A program made the position numbers and the translations under genes. The notes under the pieces are model-generated. The model had not been told where the DNA came from, did no database searches, and worked only from the letters and a program-made list of their open reading frames with translations. From Perkinsus olseni (lineage: Eukaryota): a stretch of 64,000 nucleotides of DNA. Below, in pieces: positions 8,981 to 34,187 of the stretch; within the stretch, counting starts at the first letter, position 1, and each line of letters opens with the position of its first letter. The stretch covers positions 1-64,000 of the forward strand of contig JABANN010000004.1 of NCBI GenBank assembly GCA_013115125.1, given 5' to 3'.

Positions 8981-9641
8981 ATGTCCCGTGTTCAAGAGAT
9001 CCCCGCTAAAGAGGTCGAGGAGGGCGTCGTCGAGTCTGACACTGACACCGACGATGAGATGCCCACCTTGGAAGCCACTAACGGCGAAGTCCCCGAGGGC
9101 GCCGCCGTCCACGAGGCCCGCACCAAGCTCAACCGTGCCGAGAAGAAGGCACGCAGGGCCATGCAGAAGCTCGGCATGAAGGCTGTCCCTGATGTCGTCA
9201 GAGTTACCTGCAGAAAGGGCAAGAACGTAATCGCGGGTGGGTGTTGGTCTTGCCGCCCTTCACCATTCTTCTCAGATGCTCTTCGTGATCTCCGAGCCTG
9301 ATGTGATGAAGGCCCCTCACGCTGACACCTACGTCGTGTTCGGCGAGGCCCGCATTGAGGACATGTCCGCCGCCTCCCAGGCCGCTGCCGCCTCTCAGTT
9401 CACTTCCACTCCTGAGGTGTCTAAGGTTGAGTCGAGCGAGTCCACCGAGGCCACCAAGGCCGAGGCTGCTGCTGCTGCTGAGCCCGAGGAGGACGAGGGC
9501 GAGGTCGATGAGACCGGTGTCGAGGCTAAGGACATCGAGCTGGTGATGAGCCAGGTGAACTGCTCTAGGGCTAAGGCTGTTAAGGCACTTAAGGCTGCCA
9601 ACAACGATATCGTCGAGGCCATCATGCAGCTCTCTCCTTAA
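8981..9641 (+). CDS. NACA: Nascent polypeptide-associated complex alpha subunit (one intron ~9227-9276)
   Basis: NRAEKKARRAMQKLGMK...FVISEPDVMKAPHADTYVVFGEARIED NAC domain and UBA DIELVMSQVNCSRAKAVKALKAANNDIVEAIMQL. Confidence 0.96.
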
Positions 9642-13116: not shown

Positions 13117-14076
13117 ATGTTGTCGCATGCTACAAGACGAGGAGGGTCCACCAGGGCCTGCCGACTGTGCTCCAAGGTGCTCGGAGTCCGGCATGTCTCC
13201 ACTGCCGCCCAGCCGGGCCTGCGGGGTGCTGATAATGCCTTCAACTCGATGTTCGAGCTTGCCGATGAAAAGCGGAACCACCTACAGGAGATAGTCGATG
13301 AAGTAAGGGGGTGAGTGGGGCGGTGGGAGGAGCGGACCAATCCGGCTCGATGTCGTCAGATCATGACCTTGGAGCTGCGAGACGCGAGGGACTTGGCGGA
13401 CGTCCTCGAAGCAACGCTGGACTCCGAAAGTAGCATGTGGGACGCATCAGGTCTCGTGGTAGTGATTTGGGCAGATTTCATAACCACAAGCGTGATACCT
13501 GGAAGGCAGCCCTTTCCACACCCCATGCACATGTTTTCGGGCTTGGATGCTGCCACACGGCCGGGCATGTATCAACCGTACGGCCTAGGCGGCAGGCTAC
13601 CCCAGCTGGGGACTCCTACCACCACACCTGCCGTACCGCAGCAGGTTAATGCGGAGCCGGGTACTGGTACGGACCTTGAGAGTGGGCCGGTAGTAGCACT
13701 CTTTAGCCATCACGAGCAGTCCTCCTGAGCCCAAGGCGCCGCAGGCGGAGGCAGCAGCAGCGGCACCGGCTCAGACCAGTAGTGTTGTGACATTGAAGCT
13801 GGTGAGTTACGAGGATGGCAAGAAGGTTACTGTGGTTAAGGAGGTGAGCCCTGTACTCGGCGTCAAATGCTGGATTCACCTCATAGGTCCGGGCCCTCCT
13901 GGGTCTAGGACTCAAGGAGTCCAAAGAGATGGTGGAAGATCTCCCTAAGGTGAAGGTGGTAGAAGTATCGTTAGGAATTCTGTTGGTAGATACTGAAAAA
14001 AGGGTTGGATAAGGGGGCGGCACAGAAGGTGATGGAAAAGTTCAAGTCAGCGGGCGCTGAAGTTGTTATCGCCTAG
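13117..14076 (+). CDS. MRPL12: Mitochondrial ribosomal protein L7/L12 (bL12m)
   Basis: Arg-rich presequence-like N-terminus, LQEIVDEIMTLELRDARDLADVLE, and C-terminal domain VTLKLVSYEDGKKVTVVKEVRALLGLGLKESKEMVEDLPKILKKGLDKGAAQKVMEKFKSAGAEVVIA*. Confidence 0.9.
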
Positions 14077-14182: not shown

Positions 14183-17100
14183 ATGACGTACTTCGCGAAC
14201 CCGGCAGGACAGCCGCCTCCTCCTCCCGACAGCTCCCCTGCTCAGGCTACTGTGCAGCCGGTGAGGGTAGAGTACGGGTATCACCTCCAACAGCAGCAAT
14301 GGTCTCGGGTAGTATGGGCAGCATGCTAAGGCGCTTGAGAGCATCCTGTACGGTCGTAGTAACTGTCCTTACTTCTGCTTAGCCCCAACCTGGTGCGCAA
14401 AAGGGCCGGGCTGGGCAGCGCCTTCCACCAGCGACTGAGATGTCCCCGATCAGCGTGGCCTCGGCACCCAGCCCTCAGGATAGTGAGGGTAGTATCTTCG
14501 CAGGATGTGTCCAGGTTCAAGTTTGAGTCAGGTAACGTCTCGTTCGGAATGCCTGACGCAGGGGAAGGCCCGCATATCTTGGGTGCCCGACGGGGTTTAC
14601 CAGCAGGGCAAACTTCGATGCCGAAAAGACGTAGGCTCGCGTGTCACGTGTTGCTCTTGAAGGATGTTCTCTTAAGGCCGGGCCTCCTCCCCTCCTGGAG
14701 CGTCTTCCAGTGATGATGAGTGGAGGCACTCACCGAGCTCCAGCTCCTCGGATGGTGACGACGTGGACCATGGGTCCTTGCGGGCACCCAGTCGACGCCC
14801 CCTTCGGTTTCACCCGCTGCTCTCGGGCAAATGTGACTCTCGAGAGTTCGACAAGTATGAGCCTAGACTACTGGAGATGGACGGCCCACTATGGTACTTC
14901 GGATTTGTGTGTTTTCCCACGGGACTGCTGCTGTCGGCAGGCAATCGTGCGGCCGACGGATCGTTCCAGTGAGTCCGGTACTGCAGCTCACACCGGATAC
15001 GGTTTGCCGAGTGTCTAAGGTTATAGCGGCGGAAAAACGGTATTACGGGGCGACCCACCGCTGTCGAATCACAGGCTGCCAGGTGTATCGGTTTGGACGT
15101 AGTAGGAGTGCCAGCACCGAAATTACCCGACAACAGCAGCAAGCGGTCAATAGTGGACCATCTCGTTATCGCGACAATGCATGGGGTTACCATCATTGGC
15201 CCGGCTGCTGCTGCTGCTGCTGCTGGCAGCATGTGCAAAGATATGCTCGCAGCCCAGCTCATAGGGCACCTCAAGGTAGGCGGCCGCACCGAGTCGACTT
15301 TGACGCATCTTGCCGTCTCAGTTGTATCGGAATACGGTACATGTCGTCATTCCTCGGACGGATGTGCTTGATAGGGCCTGTCGCTTCCTAGGCTTCAAGC
15401 ACGGTAGGTCCTGACCCACATGAGTGTTCGGTTATTAGGGTAGCTTTTTCAGGAGCTTTGGCGGGCATGATCAACGTAGTGCAGTGGGTCAGGAAGTGGG
15501 CTACGAGTAAGAAGACGCATGGCGCCGCTATCCTGGCCAAAAACATCATTGCCGTAAGTGAAGGGACAACAGCCGGACACGACAGGACCTCTCTCTTGCA
15601 GGACCTAGAAGCCTCGGGAGGGGGAGAGCTCTCCGTTGAGAGCCTTTGCGGCTTCTTCTTGCCATACAAGCCGCACTTTACTGGGCCTCCGAAGGAGAAT
15701 CTGGAGAGGCTGCCGAACAATGTTCGCTCGCATACCATGGCCCATGTGGCATTTTTCACGAGGAAGGTAGTAGCTCCTGAACGCAGCTAACTTTACAACT
15801 TCGCCCCATCAGGTTTTCCGAATGTTTTATGACCGGGCCGCGGACCCAGATGGGGCCTGCAGGGCAGACAGTAGTGAGGGCGCTCGTGAGACTGATTGCG
15901 TATCGGTGGTAACCTCCGAGGAGGGCGCTGCCGCTACCCCGATCACCTCCGGTCCCAATGTCGTCGCTGCGGGCGGGAAGTCTCCGATGGCCCGGCTGTC
16001 CACGGGAGATGTTCAAGATCTGGAGGGAGTGGCCATGGGCATCCGTGAGCTGAGGCGCAGCGGAGAGGAGCTCGCGAAACAGCCACGCGAAAGTTGACGA
16101 CAACACGGAGTTTCTGTTCGGAAGGCCCGGCTTTGGTTTATTCGCCCCTCTGCCGCTGCTGTGGGGCATGGTTGTCCTGGTCTTAATCGCTGGCCAAGCT
16201 TGATTGAATGAATGCCGGAACTGCTAGGAGGGGCGCGTTATCTTCTATTACCAAGCGAACCGGGCGCGGCAGCGGCCTTCCACGTACCCCCACCAGAGGT
16301 GGGCTGATCGGCAGCAGCAGGCCGCCATCGCGAGGTGCTTTACGAGGTCGGGGGGGAGGTGTAGCGGGCCCCTCGAGGATGATGCAATCCCGCGGGGGTC
16401 GAGGTCGAGCTGTACCTAAGGCAGGCAGGATCGTTCGGGCAACATGGCGGACGCCGCCGCCGCCGCTCGCTCGAGGTGGTTCTACCTCATCATTACCCCG
16501 GTCCGTAAGGGTACCCTCGTCTAGCTCTAGCTTTGCCCGGTACACCGGTGATTCCGATGGTCGAAGCCCTAAGTCATTGCTGCTGGGCCGACCGCCTGCT
16601 TCGAGGACAGCGGGTGGGCTGGTGGACTTAACTCACCCAGAAGAAGGCCTCCGCGTGCCACGCCCCTCCCTTGCAGGGTTGCCGAAAGCTGGGCGGGTGG
16701 TCACGGCTGATTCTACAGCCAAGGCGCTACCACGCCAAAGCTTGCCCCCTCCGCTCCCACCCGGTCGCCCTATAACGTCTACCGATCGGCCCCCGACCAA
16801 TCCCAGCCCTATTGAGAGGGGGCTCGTTGAAAGGGCGCCTAGGCCTACTGAGAAGCAGCCCTTTCCTACTGAGAGGCATGTCAGCCCAACTGAGAGGCAG
16901 CCCAGGCCAACCGAGGGGGCGTGCGGCCCTTCCCAAAGAAGTAGACCGCCTCTCACAAGGCGACTGCCAAAGCCTGATGTACCGAAGGAGGGTGCCCGAG
17001 GTATACTGGAGAGGATGCGAGAGCTGCAGGCGAGATTGAATACACTGGCCTCCGCAAATGCCGGTGGTAGTACCAGCACCCAGCGTCCAGCGGATCATTC

Positions 17101-17396
17101 GGCAGACTCGCAAGACCGGCGAGGCCGGAAGCGCCCCCACGAAGAATGTGAGCCCGCAGCTCCGCAGGTGAGCGGTGGAAGGGGCGGCCTGGCTCCCGCC
17201 ACAGCCGATGTTTCAGACTTCCAGTAGTGCTAAGGCGCCCACGGGAGAAGTGGTGGAGTCCACGAGTGATGAGACCGGAGGGGATTTACCACAGCTCAGC
17301 CGCGAACAGAAGGCGTCTTTATGTAATTCATTACTTGCTTTTATCCACCGAGAGCTCTCCTCAGCTGCACGAGACAGGATGTGCATTTGTCCTTGA
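14183..17396 (+). CDS. Paralog A: degenerate DEDDy 3'-5' exonuclease-like domain plus RG/P-rich disordered region
   Basis: Spliced TPDTVCRVSKVIAAEKR|CIGLDVVGVP...HLVIATMHGVTIIG...SVESLCGFF...MAHVAFFTRK|VFRMF, a long RGG/P-rich exon (~16228-17167), ending LSREQKASLCNSLLAFIHRELSS. Joining across 16045-16227 uses plausible GT-AG introns but is uncertain. Confidence 0.55.
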
Positions 17397-17562
17397 AGTA
17401 TTGGTATCATTCACTGCTAGTGTCGAGCCATTCTCTGAACTGTGGTGTGCCGCGTTTGGTGTGGGTGGATCCTCTCCAGACTTTCTCCTCGATCTTCTCT
17501 GCGCAGTTGACTGCATCCGGCAAGGTGAGCAGTACGGTGACCTCCTGCGGTGTGATACAGTA

Positions 17563-20500
17563 ATGGCCAACACATACGATTACTATGCTGGTCAAGGCTA
17601 CGATCAGCAGCAACAACAACAACAACAGGCTCCGATTCCGAGATTGGGGGTCCCCTACAGCAACCGCTCTCAGCCACCTGGCACGGTACCTATGCCGCTG
17701 CCTCGGTATGCCCCCAAGCGTTCTTGGGAGGCTGCTCCCTGGCAGCAGCAACAGCAGCAAGGACAGGCTCTTGATCATAGCGTCAGTGCAGCAGCGTGGG
17801 CCCCTGCGAACAATAGCAACAATGGTGGTACATGGCAACAACAGGAGAGATACAAAACACGGCAGCCAGCCATCGGCCACGCTGATGCTGATGCCTTCTC
17901 TCACTACCTGGACGCCTCGAGGCCCCCCGCAGCACCGAGGCCGCTGCCCTTCCACCAGCTCACACCGGACGCTGGTTGGCCTCCTCCACTCAGCTCCCTC
18001 GGTGTGGCTGTCGCCAAGCCCCTCCCGCCTGGGTACCGCCCCCACGACTATCGAGACCTTGATAGTGCGTCTATCGACCGCCAAACGGTGTCCATCGCTC
18101 GACCGATGTCGCACCCCCTCGAGCAGCAGCAAGCGCCTCAGCGAGTTGTGGGAGTTCTCACAATGATAGATGCTTCTAGGGGCCTCATACAGTCGGAGGC
18201 AACTGGGGCCTCCAAGATTGTCTTTCACGTCAGCCAGTGTAGCAATGCCCAGCAAAAACAGACGGTAAGTCCACCAGCTGCGGGGTTGTCTTCACATTCG
18301 TTCTCTTCCCTCAGCTGGCTGATCGTGTGAAGCGTGGCTCTGCTTCGGGCAAGAAGCTGCCTGTGACGTTCACTGTGGCCCAGCTCCCAAACGGCACATG
18401 TGTTGCTAAGTCCGTCTCGGTGGTCGGTGCCAAGCCCAACGATGGCAAGGGAGCTCAGGTAAAGTTGCCATTTTCATTCAGCTCTTTAGTGCCTCTCCTT
18501 CAGGCCTCAGCACCATCAGGCCCACCAGTGGAGGTTCTGGAACGGGCGAGGAAGGTGCAAGAGGCAGCCGTTGCTGCTGTTGCCTCAGCCAAGGCTATGT
18601 ACCCACCGGCCCAGCGCGGCAAGGGACCCTCTCCTAAGGCGAAGGCTCCGAACAATCGCAAGAGAAGGAATAATCATCCAAAAGCCGGGGCGGGGCCGCG
18701 TCCCCCTCCTGTTCGCGGAGGGAAGCCCTCGAACCCGAAGAAGAGCGCGAAAGTCGCATCACCGCGAGGATCGGCGCCAGTAAAAAGGTCCCCACCCGTC
18801 GCCAAGGTGAGAAGGGCTCCGAGCTTGAGGTCGGTCTAGCTACTATGTTGGTTCTCAGGCGAAGGAAGTACCGGAAAAACCAGTACGACTTGCCGAGAAT
18901 CTCGCCCCCAACGATCTGGCGAATCCCAACGCCCCACTGCTTGGCGGCCTTGCTCAGCTCACCATACCACCTGGCTTCCCGCCCCTTCCTCCGGGACCCC
19001 CGCCGCATGCTACTTCGACCATTCCCGGACCGCCCTTGCAGCAGCAGCAGCCCTCGGCTGGTGGTGCTCCCGAGGCGAAGGCTTCGTCCAAGCAGCAAGC
19101 TGAGGCCTCCTCCTCCTCCTCCTCCTCCTCCTCCTCCTCCACGGTGGTCCGTGACTGGCGTGTGAAGGCAGCGGCGGCCTCCAAGGCCACTGCCTCAGCG
19201 AGTAGCAAAGAGTTCGCCTATAAGCGATCGGCTGAGCACCCTTTGCGGCTGGTGAAAGCGAGCAACCCTCCGAAACCGAAGTCCCCCGCTAAGACCGCTC
19301 CGGAGCCGGCCAAGGTTACTAAGGCGAGCCCAACCGGGGTCCCAGCTCCTCCTGCAGAGAAGGCCAAAACGAAGGCAGCCAGTAAGTGAACCGGTGACTA
19401 TGATCTCATTGATACGATGGCATCGGCATGCCAGGTCCATCTTCAGTGGTACCACCCAAGCCCAGCCAACCAAAGCTGCCGATCGAATCCCGCTCCGGCA
19501 AGGGCAATGGCTTGGATGATCTCCAGTCAAGCCGCACGCGGTCTATGTCCCACACGTCCTCGTCGGGCTCCTCGGCCGTCTCCCCCATCTCGGTTGCCAC
19601 TTCCACTGGGTACGCTAGGCATCAGTAGCTTGCTGTAGGAAGCCTATCTTCTGTCAGTGAGCGTGGTCATGTGAGCATCCCCGAGGATGACCTTGACTTC
19701 ACATATGATAGCGACAGCTTCAGCAGCGCAGGCATCATTTTTAAAGAAGGATGGCTGCCTTCCGATCCGTGAGGGATACTCGGGTGTATCTGTACTTTGG
19801 TGAGCTTGCCGTGCTGCTCAGTCCCACCGTCACGGTCACCCTATTGGGCAGCACCTGCGAGGACGTCGCCCGGGTTATCAGGCGCATCTGCGCGGAAAAA
19901 TCGTAGGAGTTCTTTTCGCGGCCGTTGGGAGACTGATGGCGTTCCCATGGCAGGTGTGTCTCTTTGGACGTCGTTGACGTCCCCATCGAGCGAGGCTACT
20001 CTACCCGCAGCACGGTTCTGGCGATCGGCACACGTCACGGCATCTCCGTCATCGGCTGTGACGGCCCGAATAGTGGCAGGGCGAAAAGTGATAACGTGGA
20101 GTGGACGGTGGCGAGGACGATTCTGGCCAACCATCTTTTCGGCCGAGCATCGGTACTAGGCTGCTCACCCTTGGCTATGTGGAAATTCTCCCCTTCTCCT
20201 CAGAGCCGCTCTTCCACTGTCCCGCTGGTTGTAGACAACTCGAATGGGGCCTCGAGACTTTGCCGTTTTCTCGGAATGTATGACCTGTCTCGAGAGGAGG
20301 CTCTGCAGAGTGTTGATATCATTGATGCAATTAAGAAGATGCTGGTCCAGTCGGAGAAGGGCGGTGGAGGACTACCACCCCGCGCCGATTCCCTCATGAA
20401 GGACATCCGCATGGTACGGTGTCTTCTGCTGTCTGTCACACTTCCACCTATCGCTATTAGTTCCATGACGCTCGGTCGATTCCCGTGACACTGGCGAGTC

Positions 20501-21074
20501 TGTGTAACTATTTCCATCGCCCCCATCGAGTCCGGCTCGGCTCGGCCCCGCACACTACGCGAGCCTTCGACCTCGGTCACATTGCCTTTTATACCAGACG
20601 CGTAGTATACCTTATTCCTTCTCCCTCGAGCTTGCGCTCCACCAGCCGGTTCGTTAGGTCTTTCAGCAGTTTAATAAGAGATTCACAGCGAAGGCGGGTA
20701 CACGCAAGAGGAAGCGGCAAATAGCAACGGAAGAGGCCAGGGTATTCACTGCTTCACCGTTGTTTCTTCAGCACTGCTAATTGGGAGTTCCCCATGATGG
20801 GAATCGCGGGCGGTGTTTGCAGGGCTTTTCGCAGGTCTCTCGCAATGTCGCCAATGACCACGGAACCAGTAGTCAGTCGCAGAACTCGTCCGCACAGCGT
20901 GATAAGTGTGGACCTGCTGTTGAGCCCGCGCAGGGACGTGTAAGTAAGGCGCCACGAACAGAGGGGGGAGGGAAACACACCGGGTTGAGTGATGCTGATA
21001 GAAAGCTTGTGAAAGATGCTATATTGAGTTTCATACAAAGAGAGCTACAGCGTAGTAAGAACGCCTGGACTTGA
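17563..21074 (+). CDS. Paralog B: Q/P-rich N-terminus, cold-shock-like OB fold, disordered linker, degenerate DEDDy exonuclease-like domain
   Basis: MANTYDYYAGQGYDQQQQ start. CSD-like VVGVLTMIDASRGLIQSEATGASKIVFHVSQC...VTFTVAQLPNGTCVAKSV. Then TCEDVARVIRRICAEKS|CVSLDVVDVP...VLAIGTRHGISVIG...TLASLCNYF...LGHIAFYTRR|VFQQF, ending LSDADRKLVKDAILSFIQRELQR. Confidence 0.6.
19106..19140 (+). repeat. (TCC)n microsatellite encoding poly-Ser
   Basis: About 11 perfect TCC units inside the coding linker of paralog B. Confidence 0.9.
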
Positions 21075-21321
21075 ACTGACCCCTCCCTCGACGCCGCCCC
21101 GCCGCCGGTACGAACCAGCCGTAGCAGGCGTAGCGGTAGTAGGAATATTGACAAAACGGCCGTGGCGTCGACGGTGGCGACGGGCCTATGACTATTTGTA
21201 CCATTCTTCCTTCCCTATCTTCAACGTATGCACACTGCTCCGCAAGGAGCAGTCTTTACTCAAGGCCTGTTGCGTTGTAGTACCTCATCGCAGCCTTGCC
21301 CGACAGCTGTTGGCCTCCCTT

Positions 21322-23605
21322 ATGGCCTCCTCCCCCTCTCTACCTCCTCGAGACGATCTCTATCGGAGGTTTCGAGTCGTTCCTTCGGCTGATGATTCTC
21401 ATCTAGTCCACCGCAAAGCAATATGGGATGCTCGGGGATGTAAGTTCCCTCCTGTCTAGCAACACCGCCCGGCACCCAACAGGCGAGGTGATGATGATTG
21501 ACTTCCTTTTCGTGGCGCTCAGGCAAGCCGAGCCTCGATGAGTCGGAGCTCTTGGAGATGTCCAACGACACTCTGGTGGACTACCTACGAATACTTCACT
21601 TCAACGAGATAGACCTGTATTTCCTGTTGAACGAATCTACTCTGGTTCACGCCTCAAAGCCTATAGCCTACGAGAACCCCTGCAATGAACGGAAGGCCCT
21701 CTTCCTCGCCAAAAAGGTGTTGACCTCTCACGGTGCCTCCACGCAAAGGGTGGCGAAATTGCAGAACAAGATAGACTCCTTCTGCCGTCCCGCCAGCAAC
21801 GTCCGTATCTCAAGCGAAGTGGAAGTCTCGAACCCTTACGTGGCTGAGGTAGCGCCCAAATGCGTGGTGGGTAACCGGTCGTCGGATCTGGGTGGAGGCG
21901 TGGGGCTGTACGCGAAGGAAAACGTCTCTGCTGGTGAGTCCTCTCGATTACTTCTGCGCAAAGCTGCTCCGCCCAACTCGCAGGTGACGATGTAATACGC
22001 GTCCCTGAGGGCGATTCGCGAATTATTAACATCTACGCAGCGGCGGCCGACGAGGATTTCGGTCCGGTGGTGGAGAGTCTCCTCGCCGCAGGCCACCACA
22101 TCGACACCTGCCTTCTTATGTAAGCCAACATGGTGCGTCGTTTCTCCCCGAGGGAGCGACCATCAGGTACTTGGTACACATCTACAAGTCACCTAAGCTG
22201 CGATCGTTACCTGCCATCGCGTGTTTTGTACAGTATCTCCCGACGGAGTTCTCGGGCAACCTAATGGAGTGGCCACTTGAAGCCTTGGACGCTCTTGGAA
22301 TTCCTCAAATAAAACAGCTGGTACTCCTCTTCGAAGCCTGTAAAAATGTGGACGCTTTCTCTCATCAGGTGTCCCAGCAGATGGATCTCCTCTGGGGTAT
22401 ACACCGTGCATTGCCAGCTGGCCTCTGTGGCAGTTTTGATGACGAGCTTCTGTGGGCTCGGTCTCTCTGCGACAGCCGAGCCTTCGCTCTCGAGGTAGTG
22501 CTCATTGTGAACGCCTCTTCTTAAGAGGTCGGCTACTGACTCGTAGCACAACAGCATCGAATGTCAGCATGTTGCACTCGTGACAACAGGCTACACTTAG
22601 ATCTCCTTTGGGTTTGAGGAGGCTGCGAGAGAAGCGGCTTGGGCAGTATCGTTCCGTCGTAGGTCCCTCCTCCGTCTTGGTGCCCTCACTGGCTCAAGAA
22701 GTACCTAACACCGGATCAACCCATCACGTGCGTGGTAAGTCTCCCTTCGCTCTCACCCTTGACCGCTAGGACGCCATGCAGGTCCCGGGTGCAGATCTGT
22801 TGAACCACCACCAGCAGGGCCAGTGTGGGTTCCCCCGCTTCGACAAGGAGAGTCGGTCGTTCGTGATCACGGCAGAGGCCAACGTGCCCGCGGGTTCGGA
22901 GTTGTTCATCAACTATGGTGGACTCCAGAACTGGGAGCAGCTCATGTAAGGCTGTCGCAGTGAGTGGCTCTCCAGTTAGCGAAAAGCGAAACTGCTCTTA
23001 GGTATTATGGCTTCTGTGAATTTACCCAGAATCCGTACGACTCCGTCACACTGGACCTAGCTGCAGCTGGTGCTGAGGAAGGCCTCCAATTGGACAGAAT
23101 AGGTGAGGTTGTGGCCGCTACGCTCCTCTTGTCCCATATCCCATCCCAGGCACTGAGCACATAATAAGGCGAGGTCAGCCTACAGTATCACCCAGACTTT
23201 GGGAGGCCCTCACCAATATGGCCGGCGTCGAGAACTTAGAGCAGCTCGAGGAGGACGCGGTGGTATCTCTTATCACCCTTCTGAGACAGGTCAGGCTGAT
23301 CAAAGCGTACGATTCGGAACGCCATTTCATTCCAGGTCACGCTAGCACCTCTTCCTGAGTCACCGGCAGCCAACGACTGGTGGACAGAAGAGTACGGCTC
23401 GACCATCAAGCAGGTAGGCGTCGCGCGTGGTTCGCCTCCTCCTGACTCCTTACATCAGTTCCGGAGCTCCCAGATGGCACTTGTTGATGAAGCAGAGCGT
23501 GTTCTTCGCCAAATGGTTGATAAAGACAGGAAGGCGAGGATTGTCCGTGCTGGTGGTGGTCAGGGAGGCCGACGGAAGGCCAAGTCTGCTAAGAAGAGGC
23601 GATGA
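21322..23605 (+). CDS. SET-domain protein lysine methyltransferase (Rubisco LSMT/SETD3/SETD6-like)
   Basis: GGGVGLYAKENVSAG, ELLWARSLCDSRAF, VPGADLLNHH and ELFINYGGLQNWEQLMYYGF SET motifs; basic C-terminal RRKAKSAKKRR*. Confidence 0.88.
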
Positions 23606-31897: not shown

Positions 31898-34187
31898 CTA
31901 TTGGCGCCAGAACCGCCAAGTAGTGACCTCAGAGCCTTTGCCTCGGCCCCCTGGCTCATCCATAAGGCCGATACCATTAGCTCTGAGTAGGTCTCTGATT
32001 CTATCAGCTTCTTTGAAGTTGCACACTCTTCTTGCGTTGTTCCTCTCTTCGATAAGACGTTCAATCTCCTCAACAGATGGCATGCCAGGTGGCATCTCGA
32101 AGTGATCAGCACCACCTCCGTAGCTTGGACCGAAAATTGGGTGGAACTCGCCACCATTCCACAGCTCGCCAGAGCGGCCCCTTTCGAAGCTGGAGTACCC
32201 GCTCTGTTGGCGTCCTTCACGTCTCCTGCTGCCTTGTCCCGAAGCCGGTGATGCATCAGTCGGAGCCGTCGGACTTGAGACCAAAGGATGCTCCTTAATG
32301 AGTACTTGAAGGTCCTCTGGATAGGGTATGTTCCTCTCTTTGCAAAAGAGACGATACTCTCCATAAACTTGTTCCAACAGCATGCGCATTTCCGCCACTG
32401 CAATCCTGTACCTGACAAAGAGCCTCACTACCGCATCGAATGATTCAGATAAAACACCCACCCCTCCGGGTCCTTGCATGAAACGCACATGTGCAGTGGC
32501 TCATTGGACTCCTGCTTAGCCGTACCCTCGAGGAAGCCCGAGCCTTGGCCGCGGAGACGGAGCTTGGCGTCAGACAGCTTGACAATCCTCTTCATATTGG
32601 CACCCTTCTGGCCTATCAGTCGCCTGGCGACGTGGAACTCCCTATCGTTCTCAATACCAATCTCGAAGCGGCATGTGTACTTCCTTATTCTACCACCATC
32701 CATACCAGTATCGTGCGGTGACGATACACTAGAAGGCGCCGGGAAGCTGCAGTTCGCAGTGGTCCCGGGCAGACTTTGAGCCATTGGTGCAGGCGGTGGT
32801 GGAGGCGGCGGTGGCGGAGGAGCCGAGATGTTGGAGGCGAGCCGCGGCGGGGGCGGGGGCGCGTATGGTCTACTATCAACCGATGAGGGAGGGGGTGGGT
32901 GTAACCAGGCGGGTGGGGGCAAGTCCGACACGATCGGGGAAGAGTCACCGCCGCCGGGATTGTGCCTGGCAGCAGGATCATTCTGATCTCGGTTACGACT
33001 TTAGCGCTACCATTGGACGCTGAGGCTTCCTCGGACCCCATTGAGCATCTTCCCGTGCAAGTCTCTGACAGCATGGTCCGCTTCGGCCATGCTCGAGAAA
33101 CGGATTATCGCGGACCCTCCGTCCGGGTTGACGGTGACCTCCCGTACTTCACCGTAGCGAGAGAACACCTGACCGTTGAAAAAGGAATCAGGTCTGAAGG
33201 CGGCGTGACGACATGGCTGTTTTACTTTCCGCAGATCGTCTTCTGTCAACTGATAGCTGAAGTTAACTCCCTCAACGGTGACAGATACGACTGGCACACT
33301 GGGCAGCCGCGGTATCTCCACCTGAGGCAGGCGAGATATCGAGAGACTTTGAAAGGAGGTTCCAAGTACCACCATCGACGATTGCTAGTACTACCTGCGG
33401 GAAATTCGGTACATGTGGTGGTGCTGAGGGATAAGCGCCACCACTCTGAACATACAAGGGCCTCGTACCATCAAACGGCCGAGTATAGGGCACTGGACTT
33501 ACTGCCGAGAACGGCATTGACAACTTCCCTGCAACTGCCTGGGTTGTATTGAAGTAGTTGATCAAATGGGAGTAGATATGCTGCACCTGTTGGGGATCTT
33601 TCGAGCTTCAGCTACTTATAATCATCCACCTACAGCCTGCTGTTGAGCCTCGGTCCCTCCCGGATGACCGTTGTAGGGTGGAAGGGTGGGTGCCGCATTG
33701 CCAGTAGTAGCAGCAGCTGTTGAAATAGAGGTCCCAATAGAGGGCAAGCTCGGCAAGCCAAGCGGGGGATGCTAAACAAAGGCGGGAGTGAAGGGAGGGG
33801 GAATGCAGCCATCACCCACATGACCATTGGCTCCATCACTCTGCATTTGCTTCTGTCTATTCATGACAAGTTGGTTGACAACCTATCGAAGGAGGGACAG
33901 TGAGGCTTTGAGTGAAACGGTCGTGTGGGCCGACCTGCTCCAAGGCGGCTGAATCCATAGTCCGAGTGTCCGGTAAGAACGGTTTAGGTTCCCCGATACC
34001 GCCCCCAGGAGGGCAACCATAAGCTGAAGTATCCATGATAGAGGGGCTTAAGAGGGGCCGTCTCCAAGCTACCATGCTGTTGTTGCTGTTGTTGCTGTTG
34101 TTGCTGTTGTTGCTGTTGTTGTTCTTGCTGTTGAGGGACGTAAGGGTCCATCCCTCCAGGAGCATCGCCATAATAAGCACTTCTCAT
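31898..34187 (-). CDS. RNA-binding protein: polyQ, RRM, SF1/KHDC4-type KH domain, C-terminal CysRS anticodon-binding-like domain
   Basis: RRM LTEDDLRKVFSRYGEVREVTV...SAIIRFSSMAEADHAVRDLHG; KH FHVARRLIGQKGANMKRI...KLRLRGQGSGFLEG...EPLHMCVS; tail EEIERLIEERNNARRVCNFKEADRIRDLLRANGIGLMDEPG...TTWR. Confidence 0.85.
34077..34133 (-). repeat. (CAACAACAG)n repeat encoding poly-Gln
   Basis: Tandem CTGTTGTTG units on the + strand, in the first exon of the RRM-KH gene. Confidence 0.9.

What the first reader, a model, noticed from the sequence alone, without database searches (positions are those of the whole stretch)
14980..20690. Tandem paralogs sharing an apparently inactive DEDDy (RNase D/WRN/Mut-7/EXD-like) exonuclease domain
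Seen: two adjacent genes align block by block despite little visible DNA similarity: TPDTVCRVSKVIAAEK / TCEDVARVIRRICAEK; CIGLDVVGVP / CVSLDVVDVP; HLVIATMHGVTIIG / VLAIGTRHGISVIG; MLAAQLIG / ILANHLFG; SVESLCGFF / TLASLCNYF; MAHVAFFTRK-VF / LGHIAFYTRR-VF. Introns fall at the same positions (after AEK and after TR[KR]). Known: DEDDy domains run 'vglD.E..p...llQia...L..ll...sL..L...YAa.D'. Inference: ExoI Asp is kept, but Glu becomes Val and the ExoIII Y/D are replaced in both copies. These would be RNA-binding pseudonucleases like Exuperantia or Egalitarian, possibly a lineage-specific RNA-granule or small-RNA module.
Basis: partly seen in the sequence, partly recalled or inferred. Interest (0 to 1): 0.75.

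Follow-up and report, generated by a model that had tools for sequence, protein, structure and literature searches.

The report
Paired dead-exonuclease-like genes in Perkinsus
Two neighbouring genes of the oyster and clam parasite Perkinsus share an old, well-conserved 220-residue domain that probably has the shape of a proofreading-type exonuclease without its catalytic residues, so it more likely binds nucleic acid than cuts it.

Summary
The window is Perkinsus DNA, closest to P. olseni. Gene A (14183-16097) and gene B (17692-21074) lie on the + strand. Each carries one copy of a ~218-aa domain (A 14954-15836, B 19823-20681). The copies are 31% identical (BLASTP E 5e-21; Smith-Waterman z = 39 against 1000 shuffles). 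Three intron positions and phases match exactly. A fourth matches only in the four-sequence alignment.

No sequence method links the domain to DEDDy exonucleases: Pfam, PHROGs, NCBIfam, PDB sequences, hhalign and a dedicated RNase D-family HMM all failed. My two AlphaFold models were too poor to use (pLDDT 47 and 43). The only positive evidence is the ESM Atlas. Its own models of both paralogs sit nearest to PF01612-type 3'-5' exonucleases (TM 0.56-0.63 over 155-185 residues).

Only 4 acidic columns are conserved across six sequences, against 16 basic ones, and ExoI Glu is Val in 6 of 6. A canonical two-metal site is therefore excluded.

The family was found only in Perkinsus among 1.84 billion representative proteins. 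The genes are not strictly adjacent, because a small RGG-rich gene lies between them.

Verdict: a probable new lineage-specific pseudo-exonuclease family of moderate interest.

The parts
14183..16097 (+). Gene A, 10 exons, 490 aa. Exons: 14183-14308, 14383-14488, 14532-14630, 14677-14893, 14941-15039, 15083-15275, 15322-15403, 15453-15553, 15602-15766, 15813-16097 (stop included).
   Evidence: Spliced model built on P0004/P0003/P0005 with GT-AG introns of 43-74 nt. Orthologues are P. olseni FOZ63_010926 and FOZ62_029464 and P. chesapeaki FOL47_000552. The upstream L7/L12 gene has its own stop at 14074-14076, so the fused models P0003 and P0005 are probably artefacts. One model (P0004) splices past the stop into the next gene, so the 3' end is not settled.
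14954..15836 (+). Domain copy A (aa 188-404 of gene A), exonuclease-like, spread over 6 exons.
   Evidence: Profile hits on its exons. Aligned to copy B. Atlas structural neighbours are PF01612-type exonuclease clusters, TM 0.57-0.62. pI 9.98, net charge +14.
16208..17396 (+). Intervening gene M, 2 exons (16208-17167, 17217-17396 with stop), 379 aa, Arg/Gly/Pro/Ser-rich, pI 11.6.
   Evidence: Modelled alone as P. olseni FOZ63_013049 (P0007, partial, 88% identical). Fused to gene A in P0004. Composition. Its C-terminal 23 residues (17295-17363) weakly resemble B's C-terminus.
17692..21074 (+). Gene B, 11 exons, 942 aa, or 985 aa from the in-frame upstream ATG at 17563. Exons: 17692-18264, 18315-18806, 18859-19381, 19435-19609, 19658-19768, 19822-19902, 19954-20152, 20204-20413, 20461-20601, 20658-20741, 20835-21074.
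   Evidence: Spliced model built on P0001 (P. marinus PMAR005145) and P0002 (P. chesapeaki FOL47_000554). Upstream ATG seen.
19823..20681 (+). Domain copy B (aa 626-843 of the 942-aa model), exonuclease-like, spread over 5 exons.
   Evidence: Atlas structural neighbours are PF01612-type exonuclease clusters, TM 0.56-0.61. pI 9.73, net charge +10. 86% identical to P. marinus against 62% for the N-terminal region.
15040..15082 (+). Intron of A after AEK, phase 2. Counterpart in B: 19903-19953, phase 2.
15276..15321 (+). Intron of A after GHLK, phase 0. Counterpart in B: 20153-20203 after GRAS, phase 0.
15767..15812 (+). Intron of A after FFTRK, phase 0. Counterpart in B: 20602-20657 after FYTRR, phase 0.
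18106..18437 (+). Conserved block in the N-terminal half of B (about aa 139-232, interrupted by intron 18265-18314). It may be a small beta-barrel.
   Evidence: 76% mean column identity between the P. marinus and P. chesapeaki copies. Only sub-threshold hints: Pfam CSD E 0.17, 12.2 bits against a cut-off of 27; ribosomal L14e-like chain E 1.1. Not established.
20985..21056 (+). C-terminal motif of B (LSDADRKLVKDAILSFIQRELQRS).
   Evidence: Conserved in P0001 and P0002. The best non-self hit of its profile among 1639 window ORFs is the last exon of gene M (E 0.41, not significant).

Best explanation
Genes A and B are old tandem duplicates that encode long, basic, mostly low-complexity proteins. 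Each is built around one ~218-residue domain that is a decayed DEDD-type (RNase D / Pol A proofreading-like) 3'-5' exonuclease fold.

The four acidic metal ligands are gone, so the domain cannot carry out two-metal-ion hydrolysis. What selection has kept is a compact, strongly basic module. [quoted passage not shown] The disordered Lys/Arg/Pro/Ser-rich arms and RKRKR-type basic clusters would add avidity and probably nuclear targeting.

**Shown:** paralogy, shared introns, restriction to Perkinsus at HMMER sensitivity, stronger conservation of the domain than of its flanks, loss of conserved acidic residues, and basic charge.

**Inferred:** the fold (from the ESM Atlas's own models only), which residue corresponds to which motif, nucleic-acid binding, and nuclear location.
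For: **Paralogy and shared introns**
-.

**Age and conservation**
- A-type and B-type proteins both occur in P. chesapeaki. Their locus tags are FOL47_000552 and FOL47_000554, and each row lists a longest contig of 143704 nt.
- B also occurs in P. marinus.
- Domain identity between species is 75-86%, against 47-62% in the flanks. The one exception is A's N-terminus against P. chesapeaki: 67 of 97 aligned (69%), but only 97 of its 187 residues align.

**Fold**
- For B, the Atlas listed 10 structural rows. Five are clusters with PF01612 in at least 65% of members, 2 are Pol I-type proteins and 3 are unnamed. TM is 0.56-0.61 over 155-179 residues.
- Single-domain exonucleases are among them, for example a 198-aa cluster with TM 0.56 by query and 0.63 by target.
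- For A, 4 of 10 rows are PF01612 clusters (TM 0.61-0.62, for example a 236-aa cluster at 0.62/0.60). Five more are Pol I or PF22619-bearing. The tenth carries only PF01367, a 5'-3' exonuclease family (TM 0.50).
- In the feature search for B, 25 of 30 hits fall in the set whose listed cluster carries PF01612 in 11% of its members. The three best hits scored 0.93, 0.92 and 0.92, the third being that cluster.
- The order of secondary-structure elements in both AlphaFold models (helix, three strands, helix, then helices) fits the start of a DEDD core.

**Loss of catalysis**
- In six sequences (two paralogues across the three available sequence sets) only columns 13, 25, 32 and 166 are always acidic.
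- The column two residues after D32 is Val in 6 of 6.

**Binding role**
- 16 columns are always Lys or Arg, against 4 always acidic.
- Domain pI is 9.7-10.0.

**Precedent**
- Pseudo-exonucleases that bind RNA or DNA are described in passages I read in PMC13659232 and bioRxiv 10.1101/2025.08.03.668247.
Against: **No sequence-level link to any exonuclease family**
- Pfam found no exonuclease family on 8 exon pieces or on 4 full-length proteins at E <= 10.
- PHROGs and NCBIfam gave nothing relevant.
- The profile against PDB sequences gave only myosin and RuvB-like chains at E >= 2.
- hhalign against E. coli RNase D, against 80 enterobacterial RNase D sequences, and against a 23-sequence diverse RNase D / PolA-exo alignment gave probabilities of 0.1-0.24%.
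- An RNase D-family HMM scored -1.9 and -2.2 bits on the only two of the six domains it reported, which is no better than shuffles (maximum 5.1 bits among 1200).

**My own structure predictions failed**
- The models were poor: pLDDT 47.3 and 42.7, pTM 0.34 and 0.32.
- Foldseek against the PDB returned 0 matches at E <= 0.001 for either model. The CorA cytosolic domain came first. EXD2 appeared only at E 0.33-0.79.

**Limits of the positive evidence**
- The fold assignment rests on one kind of evidence, language-model-based models that I could not inspect. Their whole-protein pLDDT is 0.43-0.45.
- For A, the feature scores are below 0.9.

No experiment or expression data bear on binding or localisation.
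Confidence: 0.5

Rival explanations
1. The shared domain is a Perkinsus-specific alpha/beta domain with no evolutionary link to DEDD exonucleases. On this reading the Atlas neighbours reflect generic three-layer alpha/beta similarity or a language-model bias.
For: - Every sequence and profile test was negative.
- AlphaFold did not converge on any fold, and Foldseek gave no significant match.
- HMMER found the family only in Perkinsus among 1.84 billion representatives.
- 3 of 10 Atlas rows for B are unnamed clusters.
Against: - The full-length Atlas models of two proteins that are only 31% identical both landed on the same family set.
- That set includes single-domain PF01612 clusters with TM about 0.6 normalised on both sides.
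- The N-terminal helix, strand, Asp and hairpin order matches the RNase D layout. The insignificant hhalign alignment still places LDVV on the DTE of RNase D.
Confidence: 0.22
2. The domain is still an enzyme. It would be a nuclease or other hydrolase that uses non-canonical residues, such as the invariant His and Cys, the surviving Asp/Glu32 and Glu25. My recalled precedent is that the MAEL domain cuts RNA without DEDD residues.
For: - Five Cys/His columns (28, 55, 113, 178, 204) and two acidic columns near strand 1 (25, 32) are invariant or conservatively kept in 6 of 6 sequences.
- The domain is under clear constraint.
Against: - No known catalytic constellation can be mapped.
- By sequence position the Cys/His residues are spread over distant elements.
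- The net charge is strongly positive, unlike most active DEDD domains (recalled).
- Nothing was tested.
Confidence: 0.1
3. The domain is mainly a protein-protein interaction platform, for example A-B heterodimerisation or docking of another factor. Nucleic-acid contact would come from the disordered basic arms.
For: - Both dead copies have been kept side by side in at least two species.
- The flanking regions carry most of the positive charge in B: net +37 in the N-terminal region.
Against: - The domains themselves are basic, +10 and +14, with 16 conserved basic columns.
- There is no evidence for or against dimerisation, because the complex predictor was not available.
Confidence: 0.15

Closest known systems
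Exuperantia (Drosophila), an RNA-binding pseudonuclease
   Same: A DEDD-type exonuclease-like fold without the catalytic acidic residues, used to bind RNA around the former active site (passages in PMC13659232, and bioRxiv 10.1101/2025.08.03.668247).
   Different: - Exu is of the DEDDh branch and pairs the exo-like domain with a SAM-like domain. Pfam finds no SAM-like domain here.
- There is no detectable sequence similarity: the profile search of PDB sequences found no exonuclease-like chain.
- The Perkinsus proteins are dominated by disordered basic regions.
Exd1 (EXD1), the inactive exonuclease-like partner in the piRNA pathway
   Same: An Egl/RNase D-branch (DEDDy-like) domain that has lost activity and recruits small RNAs (passage in bioRxiv 10.1101/2025.08.03.668247).
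   Different: - The Exd1 architecture with an N-terminal Lsm domain is recalled, not tested.
- B's N-terminal block gives only a sub-threshold CSD hint.
- There is no sequence link.
PXL domain of human PML-1
   Same: [quoted passage not shown] The Perkinsus domain likewise keeps only the first Asp and is basic.
   Different: PXL has the EXO-SAM arrangement and a DEDDh-type fold. It is metazoan, and there is no sequence relationship.
Active DEDDy exonucleases (Pfam PF01612: RNase D, Rrp6/EXOSC10, WRN-exo, Mut-7, EXD2)
   Same: They are the nearest predicted-structure neighbours of both paralogues. The order of helix, strand 1 with Asp, and hairpin is the same.
   Different: - No PF01612 profile match.
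- The ExoI Glu, ExoII Asp and ExoIII Tyr-x3-Asp are not conserved.
- No HRDC domain.
Egalitarian (Drosophila)
   Same: A DEDDy-branch domain used as an RNA-recognition surface inside a long adaptor protein. Mutating its catalytic residues does not affect function.
   Different: Egl retains all five DEDDy residues, so it is not a residue-level pseudonuclease. The Perkinsus domains have lost them.
Vestigial 3'-5' exonuclease domain of some bacterial Pol I enzymes (Pfam PF22619)
   Same: Appears among the structural neighbours of both paralogues, with PF22619 in 11-48% of members (1 row for B, 4 rows for A). From recall, it is a DEDD fold that lost activity in many lineages.
   Different: It is part of a polymerase and is bacterial. 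The Atlas rows are multi-domain, so which domain was matched is not shown.

Membership tests
DEDDy 3'-5' exonuclease domain (Pfam PF01612, DNA_pol_A_exo1) | Significant match to the family profile | tested here: not met
   - hmmscan at E <= 10 reported no exonuclease family on 8 exon-frame pieces or on 4 full-length orthologues.
- A home-made RNase D-family HMM gave -1.9 and -2.2 bits on the only two domains it reported, like shuffles.
- hhalign probability was 0.24% or less.
DEDDy 3'-5' exonuclease domain (Pfam PF01612, DNA_pol_A_exo1) | RNase H-like DEDD core fold (beta1-beta2-beta3-alpha1-beta4-alpha2-beta5-alpha3) | tested here: inconclusive
   - **For:** the Atlas's own models of both paralogues have PF01612 clusters as neighbours at TM 0.56-0.63 over 155-185 residues.
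- **Not confirmed:** my AlphaFold models had pLDDT 47.3 and 42.7, and 0 PDB matches at E <= 0.001.
DEDDy 3'-5' exonuclease domain (Pfam PF01612, DNA_pol_A_exo1) | ExoI motif Asp-x-Glu on strand 1 | tested here: not met
   Column 32 is D in 5 and E in 1 of 6 sequences. Column 34 is Val in 6 of 6. The assignment of this strand to ExoI is inferred. The non-significant hhalign alignment agrees with it.
DEDDy 3'-5' exonuclease domain (Pfam PF01612, DNA_pol_A_exo1) | ExoII Asp | tested here: not met
   No column between 33 and 165 is acidic in all six sequences.
DEDDy 3'-5' exonuclease domain (Pfam PF01612, DNA_pol_A_exo1) | ExoIII Tyr-x3-Asp | tested here: not met
   The last helix reads H-x-A-F-[YF]-T-R. 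His204 is invariant, and no acidic column is conserved after 166. The motif mapping is inferred.
DEDDy 3'-5' exonuclease domain (Pfam PF01612, DNA_pol_A_exo1) | Metal-dependent 3'-5' exonuclease activity | not testable with these tools
   Needs a biochemical assay.
Pseudo-exonucleases (Exu / Exd1 / PXL kind) | DEDD-like fold with the acidic catalytic set lost | tested here: inconclusive
   Loss of conserved acidic residues is shown. The fold is supported only by Atlas neighbours.
Pseudo-exonucleases (Exu / Exd1 / PXL kind) | Accessory SAM-like (Exu, PXL) or Lsm (Exd1, recalled) domain | tested here: not met
   Pfam finds no SAM, Lsm or HRDC domain in P0001, P0002, P0004 or P0005. Divergent versions cannot be excluded.
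Pseudo-exonucleases (Exu / Exd1 / PXL kind) | Direct nucleic-acid binding without cleavage | not testable with these tools
   There is only indirect support: pI 9.7-10.0 and 16 conserved basic columns.
MAEL domain (DEDDh-like with an ECHC zinc site; description recalled) | Match to the MAEL profile and an ECHC motif | tested here: not met
   No Pfam hit of any kind on the domain. The invariant E25, C28, H55, C113, C178 and H204 are only reminiscent, and their spatial proximity could not be measured.

The most novel reading that the evidence does not exclude
A, B and the small RGG-rich gene between them may form one Perkinsus-only nucleic-acid-binding particle.
- The two dead-exonuclease modules would pair with each other.
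- The related C-terminal helix shared by B and the middle gene would tether the RGG protein.
- The former active site would be rebuilt around the invariant Cys/His set (C28, H55, C113, C178, H204) as a structural or ligand-sensing metal site, as in the ECHC site of MAEL domains.
Probability: 0.08. Interest if true: 0.6.

Novelty: new member of a known kind. Interest (0 to 1): 0.35.

Why it matters
Pseudo-exonucleases have so far been described mainly in animals (Exu, Exd1, PML-1 PXL). They have been proposed as a recurrent route from RNA-processing enzymes to RNA-binding proteins (passages read).

A conserved, duplicated, sequence-orphan example in a perkinsid would extend that pattern to alveolates. 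It would also give a handle on two otherwise unannotated proteins of a commercially important mollusc parasite. It further illustrates a family that only structure-based or language-model methods can place.

The practical value is limited until the fold and a ligand are shown experimentally.

Tried and rejected
**Sequence and profile searches**
- Pfam on exon pieces and on full-length orthologues gave no exonuclease family.
- PHROGs and NCBIfam on the four domain sequences gave nothing relevant.
- The domain profile against PDB sequences gave only myosin and RuvB-like chains at E >= 2.
- hhalign of the domain alignment was run against three templates, all with probability 0.24% or less:
  - E. 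coli RNase D;
  - 80 enterobacterial RNase D sequences;
  - a 23-sequence alignment: E. coli, 8 of those 80, and 14 fetched plasmid-collection homologues (11 of them RNase D-type by annotation or match identity) and PolA-exo sequences.
- For the 23-sequence alignment I fetched 14 of the 30 rows listed, out of 67 matching records.
- An RNase D-family HMM against the six domains scored no better than shuffles.

**Structure prediction**
- AlphaFold on 4-sequence alignments gave low confidence for both paralogues.
- Foldseek against the PDB had no significant hit, so its top rows (CorA, PI3K p85, EXD2) are not evidence.
- Complex prediction for the A domain with the B domain was not available, and nothing was folded.

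**Wider homologues and other checks**
- HMMER profile against 1.84 billion representatives gave 5 hits. Four are named Perkinsus proteins. The fifth is a 96-aa fragment identical to part of P0001.
- Rfam found nothing in the window.
- Homology of the two N-termini was not significant (162 of 500 shuffles reached the score). The same holds for the 45 residues before the domain (481 of 500).
- A's C-terminal tail against B's was not significant (36 of 500 shuffles; profile E 27).
- The long gene-A model that runs into the middle gene (P0004) was considered and judged less likely. P0003 and P0005 end at the stop, and P0007 models the middle gene alone. It is not excluded.


Full report
**What is there**

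The window is eukaryotic DNA with short GT-AG introns.
- A search with the long exon of the second gene returned P. marinus PMAR005145 (P0001, 908 aa, 78% identical) and P. chesapeaki FOL47_000554 (P0002). These were 2 hits among 667 candidates.
- A search with exons of the first gene returned two P. olseni proteins (P0003, P0004) and P. chesapeaki FOL47_000552 (P0005). These were 3 hits among 623 candidates.
- The window's gene A is 96% identical to the P. olseni protein in the domain (208 of 217 residues). The window is therefore P. olseni or a very close relative (taxonomy).

**Gene models**

I rebuilt the genes with these proteins as guides.
- Gene A has 10 exons at 14183-16097 and encodes 490 aa.
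- Gene B has 11 exons at 17692-21074 and encodes 942 aa. An in-frame upstream ATG at 17563 would add 43 residues.
- All introns are 43-93 nt.
- Upstream lies a ribosomal L7/L12 gene with its own stop at 14074-14076. The database models that fuse it to gene A (P0003, P0005) are probably artefacts.
- Downstream of B lies a SET-domain gene. It is fused to B in P0002.

**Check of the observation**

- The two domains of the window give a Smith-Waterman score of 217, against 30.7 +/- 4.8 (maximum 59) for 1000 shuffles.
- BLASTP of orthologues gives E 5e-21 (31% identity over 226 columns) and E 1e-19.
- Three introns sit at identical alignment columns with identical phase: after AEK, after GHLK/GRAS and after TRK/TRR.
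- A fourth pair coincides in the four-sequence alignment but not in the pairwise one.
- A has one private intron.
- At the DNA level only one co-linear 27-nt match survives (E 0.029), so the duplication is old.
- A profile of the domain finds no further copy among 1639 six-frame ORFs of the window.
- One correction is needed. The genes are tandem but not adjacent. Between them lies a 379-aa Arg/Gly/Pro/Ser-rich ORF (16208-17396). One P. olseni record models it as its own gene (P0007) and another fuses it to gene A (P0004).

**Distribution and constraint**

A HMMER profile of four domain sequences was read against 1.84 billion representative proteins.
- It found 5 proteins at E <= 0.001. These were the four Perkinsus proteins already known and a 96-aa fragment identical to part of P0001.
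- Both paralogue types exist in P. chesapeaki, two locus tags apart. Each row lists a longest contig of the same length, 143704 nt.
- The same neighbours are present there: L7/L12 is fused to A in P0005, and SET is fused to B in P0002. The arrangement therefore predates the split of these species.
- I did not see an A-type protein from P. marinus. It could be hidden inside a 50% cluster or be unannotated.

The domain is the best-conserved part of both proteins.

| Region | Compared with | Identical / aligned | Identity |
|---|---|---|---|
| B domain | P. marinus | 186 / 217 | 86% |
| B domain | P. chesapeaki | 183 / 217 | 84% |
| B N-terminal region | P. marinus | 366 / 586 | 62% |
| B N-terminal region | P. 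chesapeaki | 309 / 571 | 54% |
| B C-terminal tail | P. marinus | 55 / 96 | 57% |
| A domain | P. chesapeaki | 161 / 214 | 75% |
| A N-terminal region | P. chesapeaki | 67 / 97 (of 187 residues) | 69% |
| A C-terminal tail | P. chesapeaki | 37 / 78 | 47% |

**Is it a DEDDy exonuclease fold? Negative results first**

- Pfam reports no exonuclease family at E <= 10, on the exon pieces or on the four full-length proteins.
- PHROGs and NCBIfam give nothing relevant.
- The profile against all PDB sequences gives only myosin and RuvB-like chains at E >= 2.
- To test the specific hypothesis I fetched E. coli RNase D, 80 enterobacterial homologues and 14 diverse plasmid-collection homologues, mostly RNase D-type plus three annotated 3'-5' exonuclease/DNA polymerase genes.
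- hhalign then gave probabilities of 0.1%, 0.24% and 0.20%.
- An HMM of the diverse set scored -1.9 and -2.2 bits on the only two of the six Perkinsus domains it reported. That is within the range of 1200 shuffles, whose maximum was 5.1.
Its score is not significant.
- My two AlphaFold runs on 4-sequence alignments gave pLDDT 47.3 and 42.7.
- Foldseek against the PDB gave 0 matches at E <= 0.001 for either model. Those hit lists are meaningless.

**Is it a DEDDy exonuclease fold? Positive results**

The ESM Atlas holds both full-length proteins, and I compared its own models over the domain.

| Paralogue | PF01612 rows of 10 | Other rows | TM range | Example single-domain cluster |
|---|---|---|---|---|
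| B | 5 (PF01612 in >= 65% of members) | 2 Pol I-type, 3 unnamed | 0.56-0.61 over 155-179 aa | 198 aa, TM 0.56 / 0.63 |
| A | 4 | 5 Pol I or PF22619-bearing, 1 with only PF01367 (TM 0.50) | 0.57-0.62 excluding the PF01367 row | 236 aa, TM 0.62 / 0.60 |

- The feature search agrees for B. Its three best hits scored 0.93, 0.92 and 0.92. Twenty-five of 30 hits fall in the set whose listed cluster carries PF01612 in 11% of members.
- The feature search is sub-threshold for A (0.88-0.89).
- The full-length Atlas models of two proteins only 31% identical thus converge on the same fold family.
- This is still one kind of evidence. I could not inspect the models, and their whole-protein pLDDT is 0.43-0.45.
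- I put the DEDD-like fold at roughly 0.7.

**Catalytic residues**

I aligned six sequences: the window's A and B with the P. olseni, P. chesapeaki and P. marinus orthologues.
- Only four columns are always acidic: 13, 25, 32 and 166 in P. marinus B-domain numbering.
- Column 32 is the Asp of 'LDVV' (Glu in P. chesapeaki B).
- The column where ExoI Glu should be is Val in 6 of 6.
- No acidic column is conserved between 33 and 165, where ExoII would fall. None is conserved after 166, where ExoIII would fall.
- The last helix reads H-x-A-F-[Y/F]-T-R with an invariant His.
- Whatever the exact motif mapping (which is inferred), a four-carboxylate two-metal site cannot be assembled from conserved residues.
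- By contrast, 16 columns are always Lys or Arg. The domains have pI 9.98 and 9.73 and net charge +14 and +10.
- Five Cys/His columns (28, 55, 113, 178, 204) are invariant. I could not test whether they cluster in space.

**Rest of the proteins**

- Both proteins are rich in Pro, Ser, Ala and Gly and carry basic clusters, for example KRRR in A and RKRKR and NRKRR in B.
- B has Lys/Pro/Ala/Ser-rich stretches in its N-terminal region, which carries net charge +37.
- B has a second conserved block at about aa 139-232. It shows only sub-threshold hints of a small beta-barrel (Pfam CSD E 0.17).
- B ends in a conserved helix-like motif (LSDADRKLVKDAILSFIQRELQRS).
- The middle gene ends in a similar string. 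BLASTP gave E 0.40 and 1 of 500 shuffles reached the score. It is also the best non-self hit of the motif profile among 1639 ORFs, at E 0.41. This is suggestive, not significant.
- A's tail does not score.

**Most likely mechanism**

This is a decayed DEDD exonuclease fold kept as a basic binding module. It sits inside long disordered, probably nuclear, nucleic-acid-binding proteins. It was duplicated in tandem before the Perkinsus species diverged, and both copies have been retained.

Binding around the former active-site face is inferred by analogy with three proteins. [quoted passage not shown] Exd1's exonuclease-like domain is described as inactive. All three bind RNA or DNA (passages read in PMC13659232, and bioRxiv 10.1101/2025.08.03.668247).

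The same preprint shows that Egalitarian keeps all five DEDDy residues, so it is not a good model for residue loss.

Rivals:
- an unrelated orphan alpha/beta domain (0.22);
- a non-canonical enzyme (0.10);
- a protein-interaction platform (0.15).

**Novelty**

- No paper in the library mentions PMAR005145 (0 papers).
- The 4 papers that hold both 'Perkinsus' and 'exonuclease domain' are, by title and abstract, about other subjects.
- The family is sequence-orphan and restricted to Perkinsus at HMMER sensitivity. The kind of thing it appears to be, a pseudo-exonuclease, is known.
- I file it as a new member of a known kind, with moderate interest.

**Left unchecked**

- Heterodimerisation: the predictor was unavailable.
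- Expression and the true 3' end of gene A.
- Residue-level structural superposition.
- Supplementary files of the papers were not consulted.

Noticed in passing
16208-17396 (+): A 379-aa Arg/Gly/Pro/Ser-rich ORF (pI 11.6, RGG-like N-terminus) lies between the two paralogues. One P. olseni record models it alone (P0007) and another fuses it to gene A through three odd introns (P0004). Its last 23 residues resemble B's C-terminal motif: it is the best non-self profile hit in the window at E 0.41, and 1 of 500 shuffles reached the score.
   Followed up: partly
18106-18437 (+), within gene B: A conserved block of about 95 residues in B's N-terminal half has weak, sub-threshold resemblance to cold-shock or small beta-barrel domains (Pfam CSD E 0.17; L14e-like PDB chain E 1.1). 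If real, it would be a second nucleic-acid-binding module.
   Followed up: partly
17563-17691 (+): An in-frame ATG 129 nt upstream of the annotated start of B would add 43 residues (Tyr/Gln-rich). Both database orthologues start at the downstream Met.
   Followed up: no
13183-14076 (+): A ribosomal protein L7/L12 gene has a complete C-terminal domain and its own stop at 14074-14076. Two database models (P0003, P0005) fuse it to gene A, probably wrongly.
   Followed up: partly
21295-23602 (+): A SET-domain gene lies directly downstream of B. It is fused to B in the P. chesapeaki model P0002 (Pfam SET E 1.8e-06).
   Followed up: no
9231-9638 (+): An ORF with NAC and HYPK-UBA domains (E 3e-08 and 1.8e-11), probably the alpha subunit of the nascent-polypeptide-associated complex.
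   Followed up: no
32431-33000 (-): An ORF with a KHDC4/BBP-like type I KH domain (E 3.1e-22), probably a branchpoint-binding or SF1-like splicing factor. A neighbouring ORF (31901-32500, -) has a sub-threshold hit to the cysteinyl-tRNA ligase anticodon-binding domain.
   Followed up: no
domain columns 28, 55, 113, 178, 204 (for example the Cys codons in CIGLD/CVSLD at about 15085 and 19956): Five Cys/His positions are invariant in all six domain sequences. This recalls the ECHC zinc site of MAEL domains (recalled), but their spatial proximity could not be examined.
   Followed up: no
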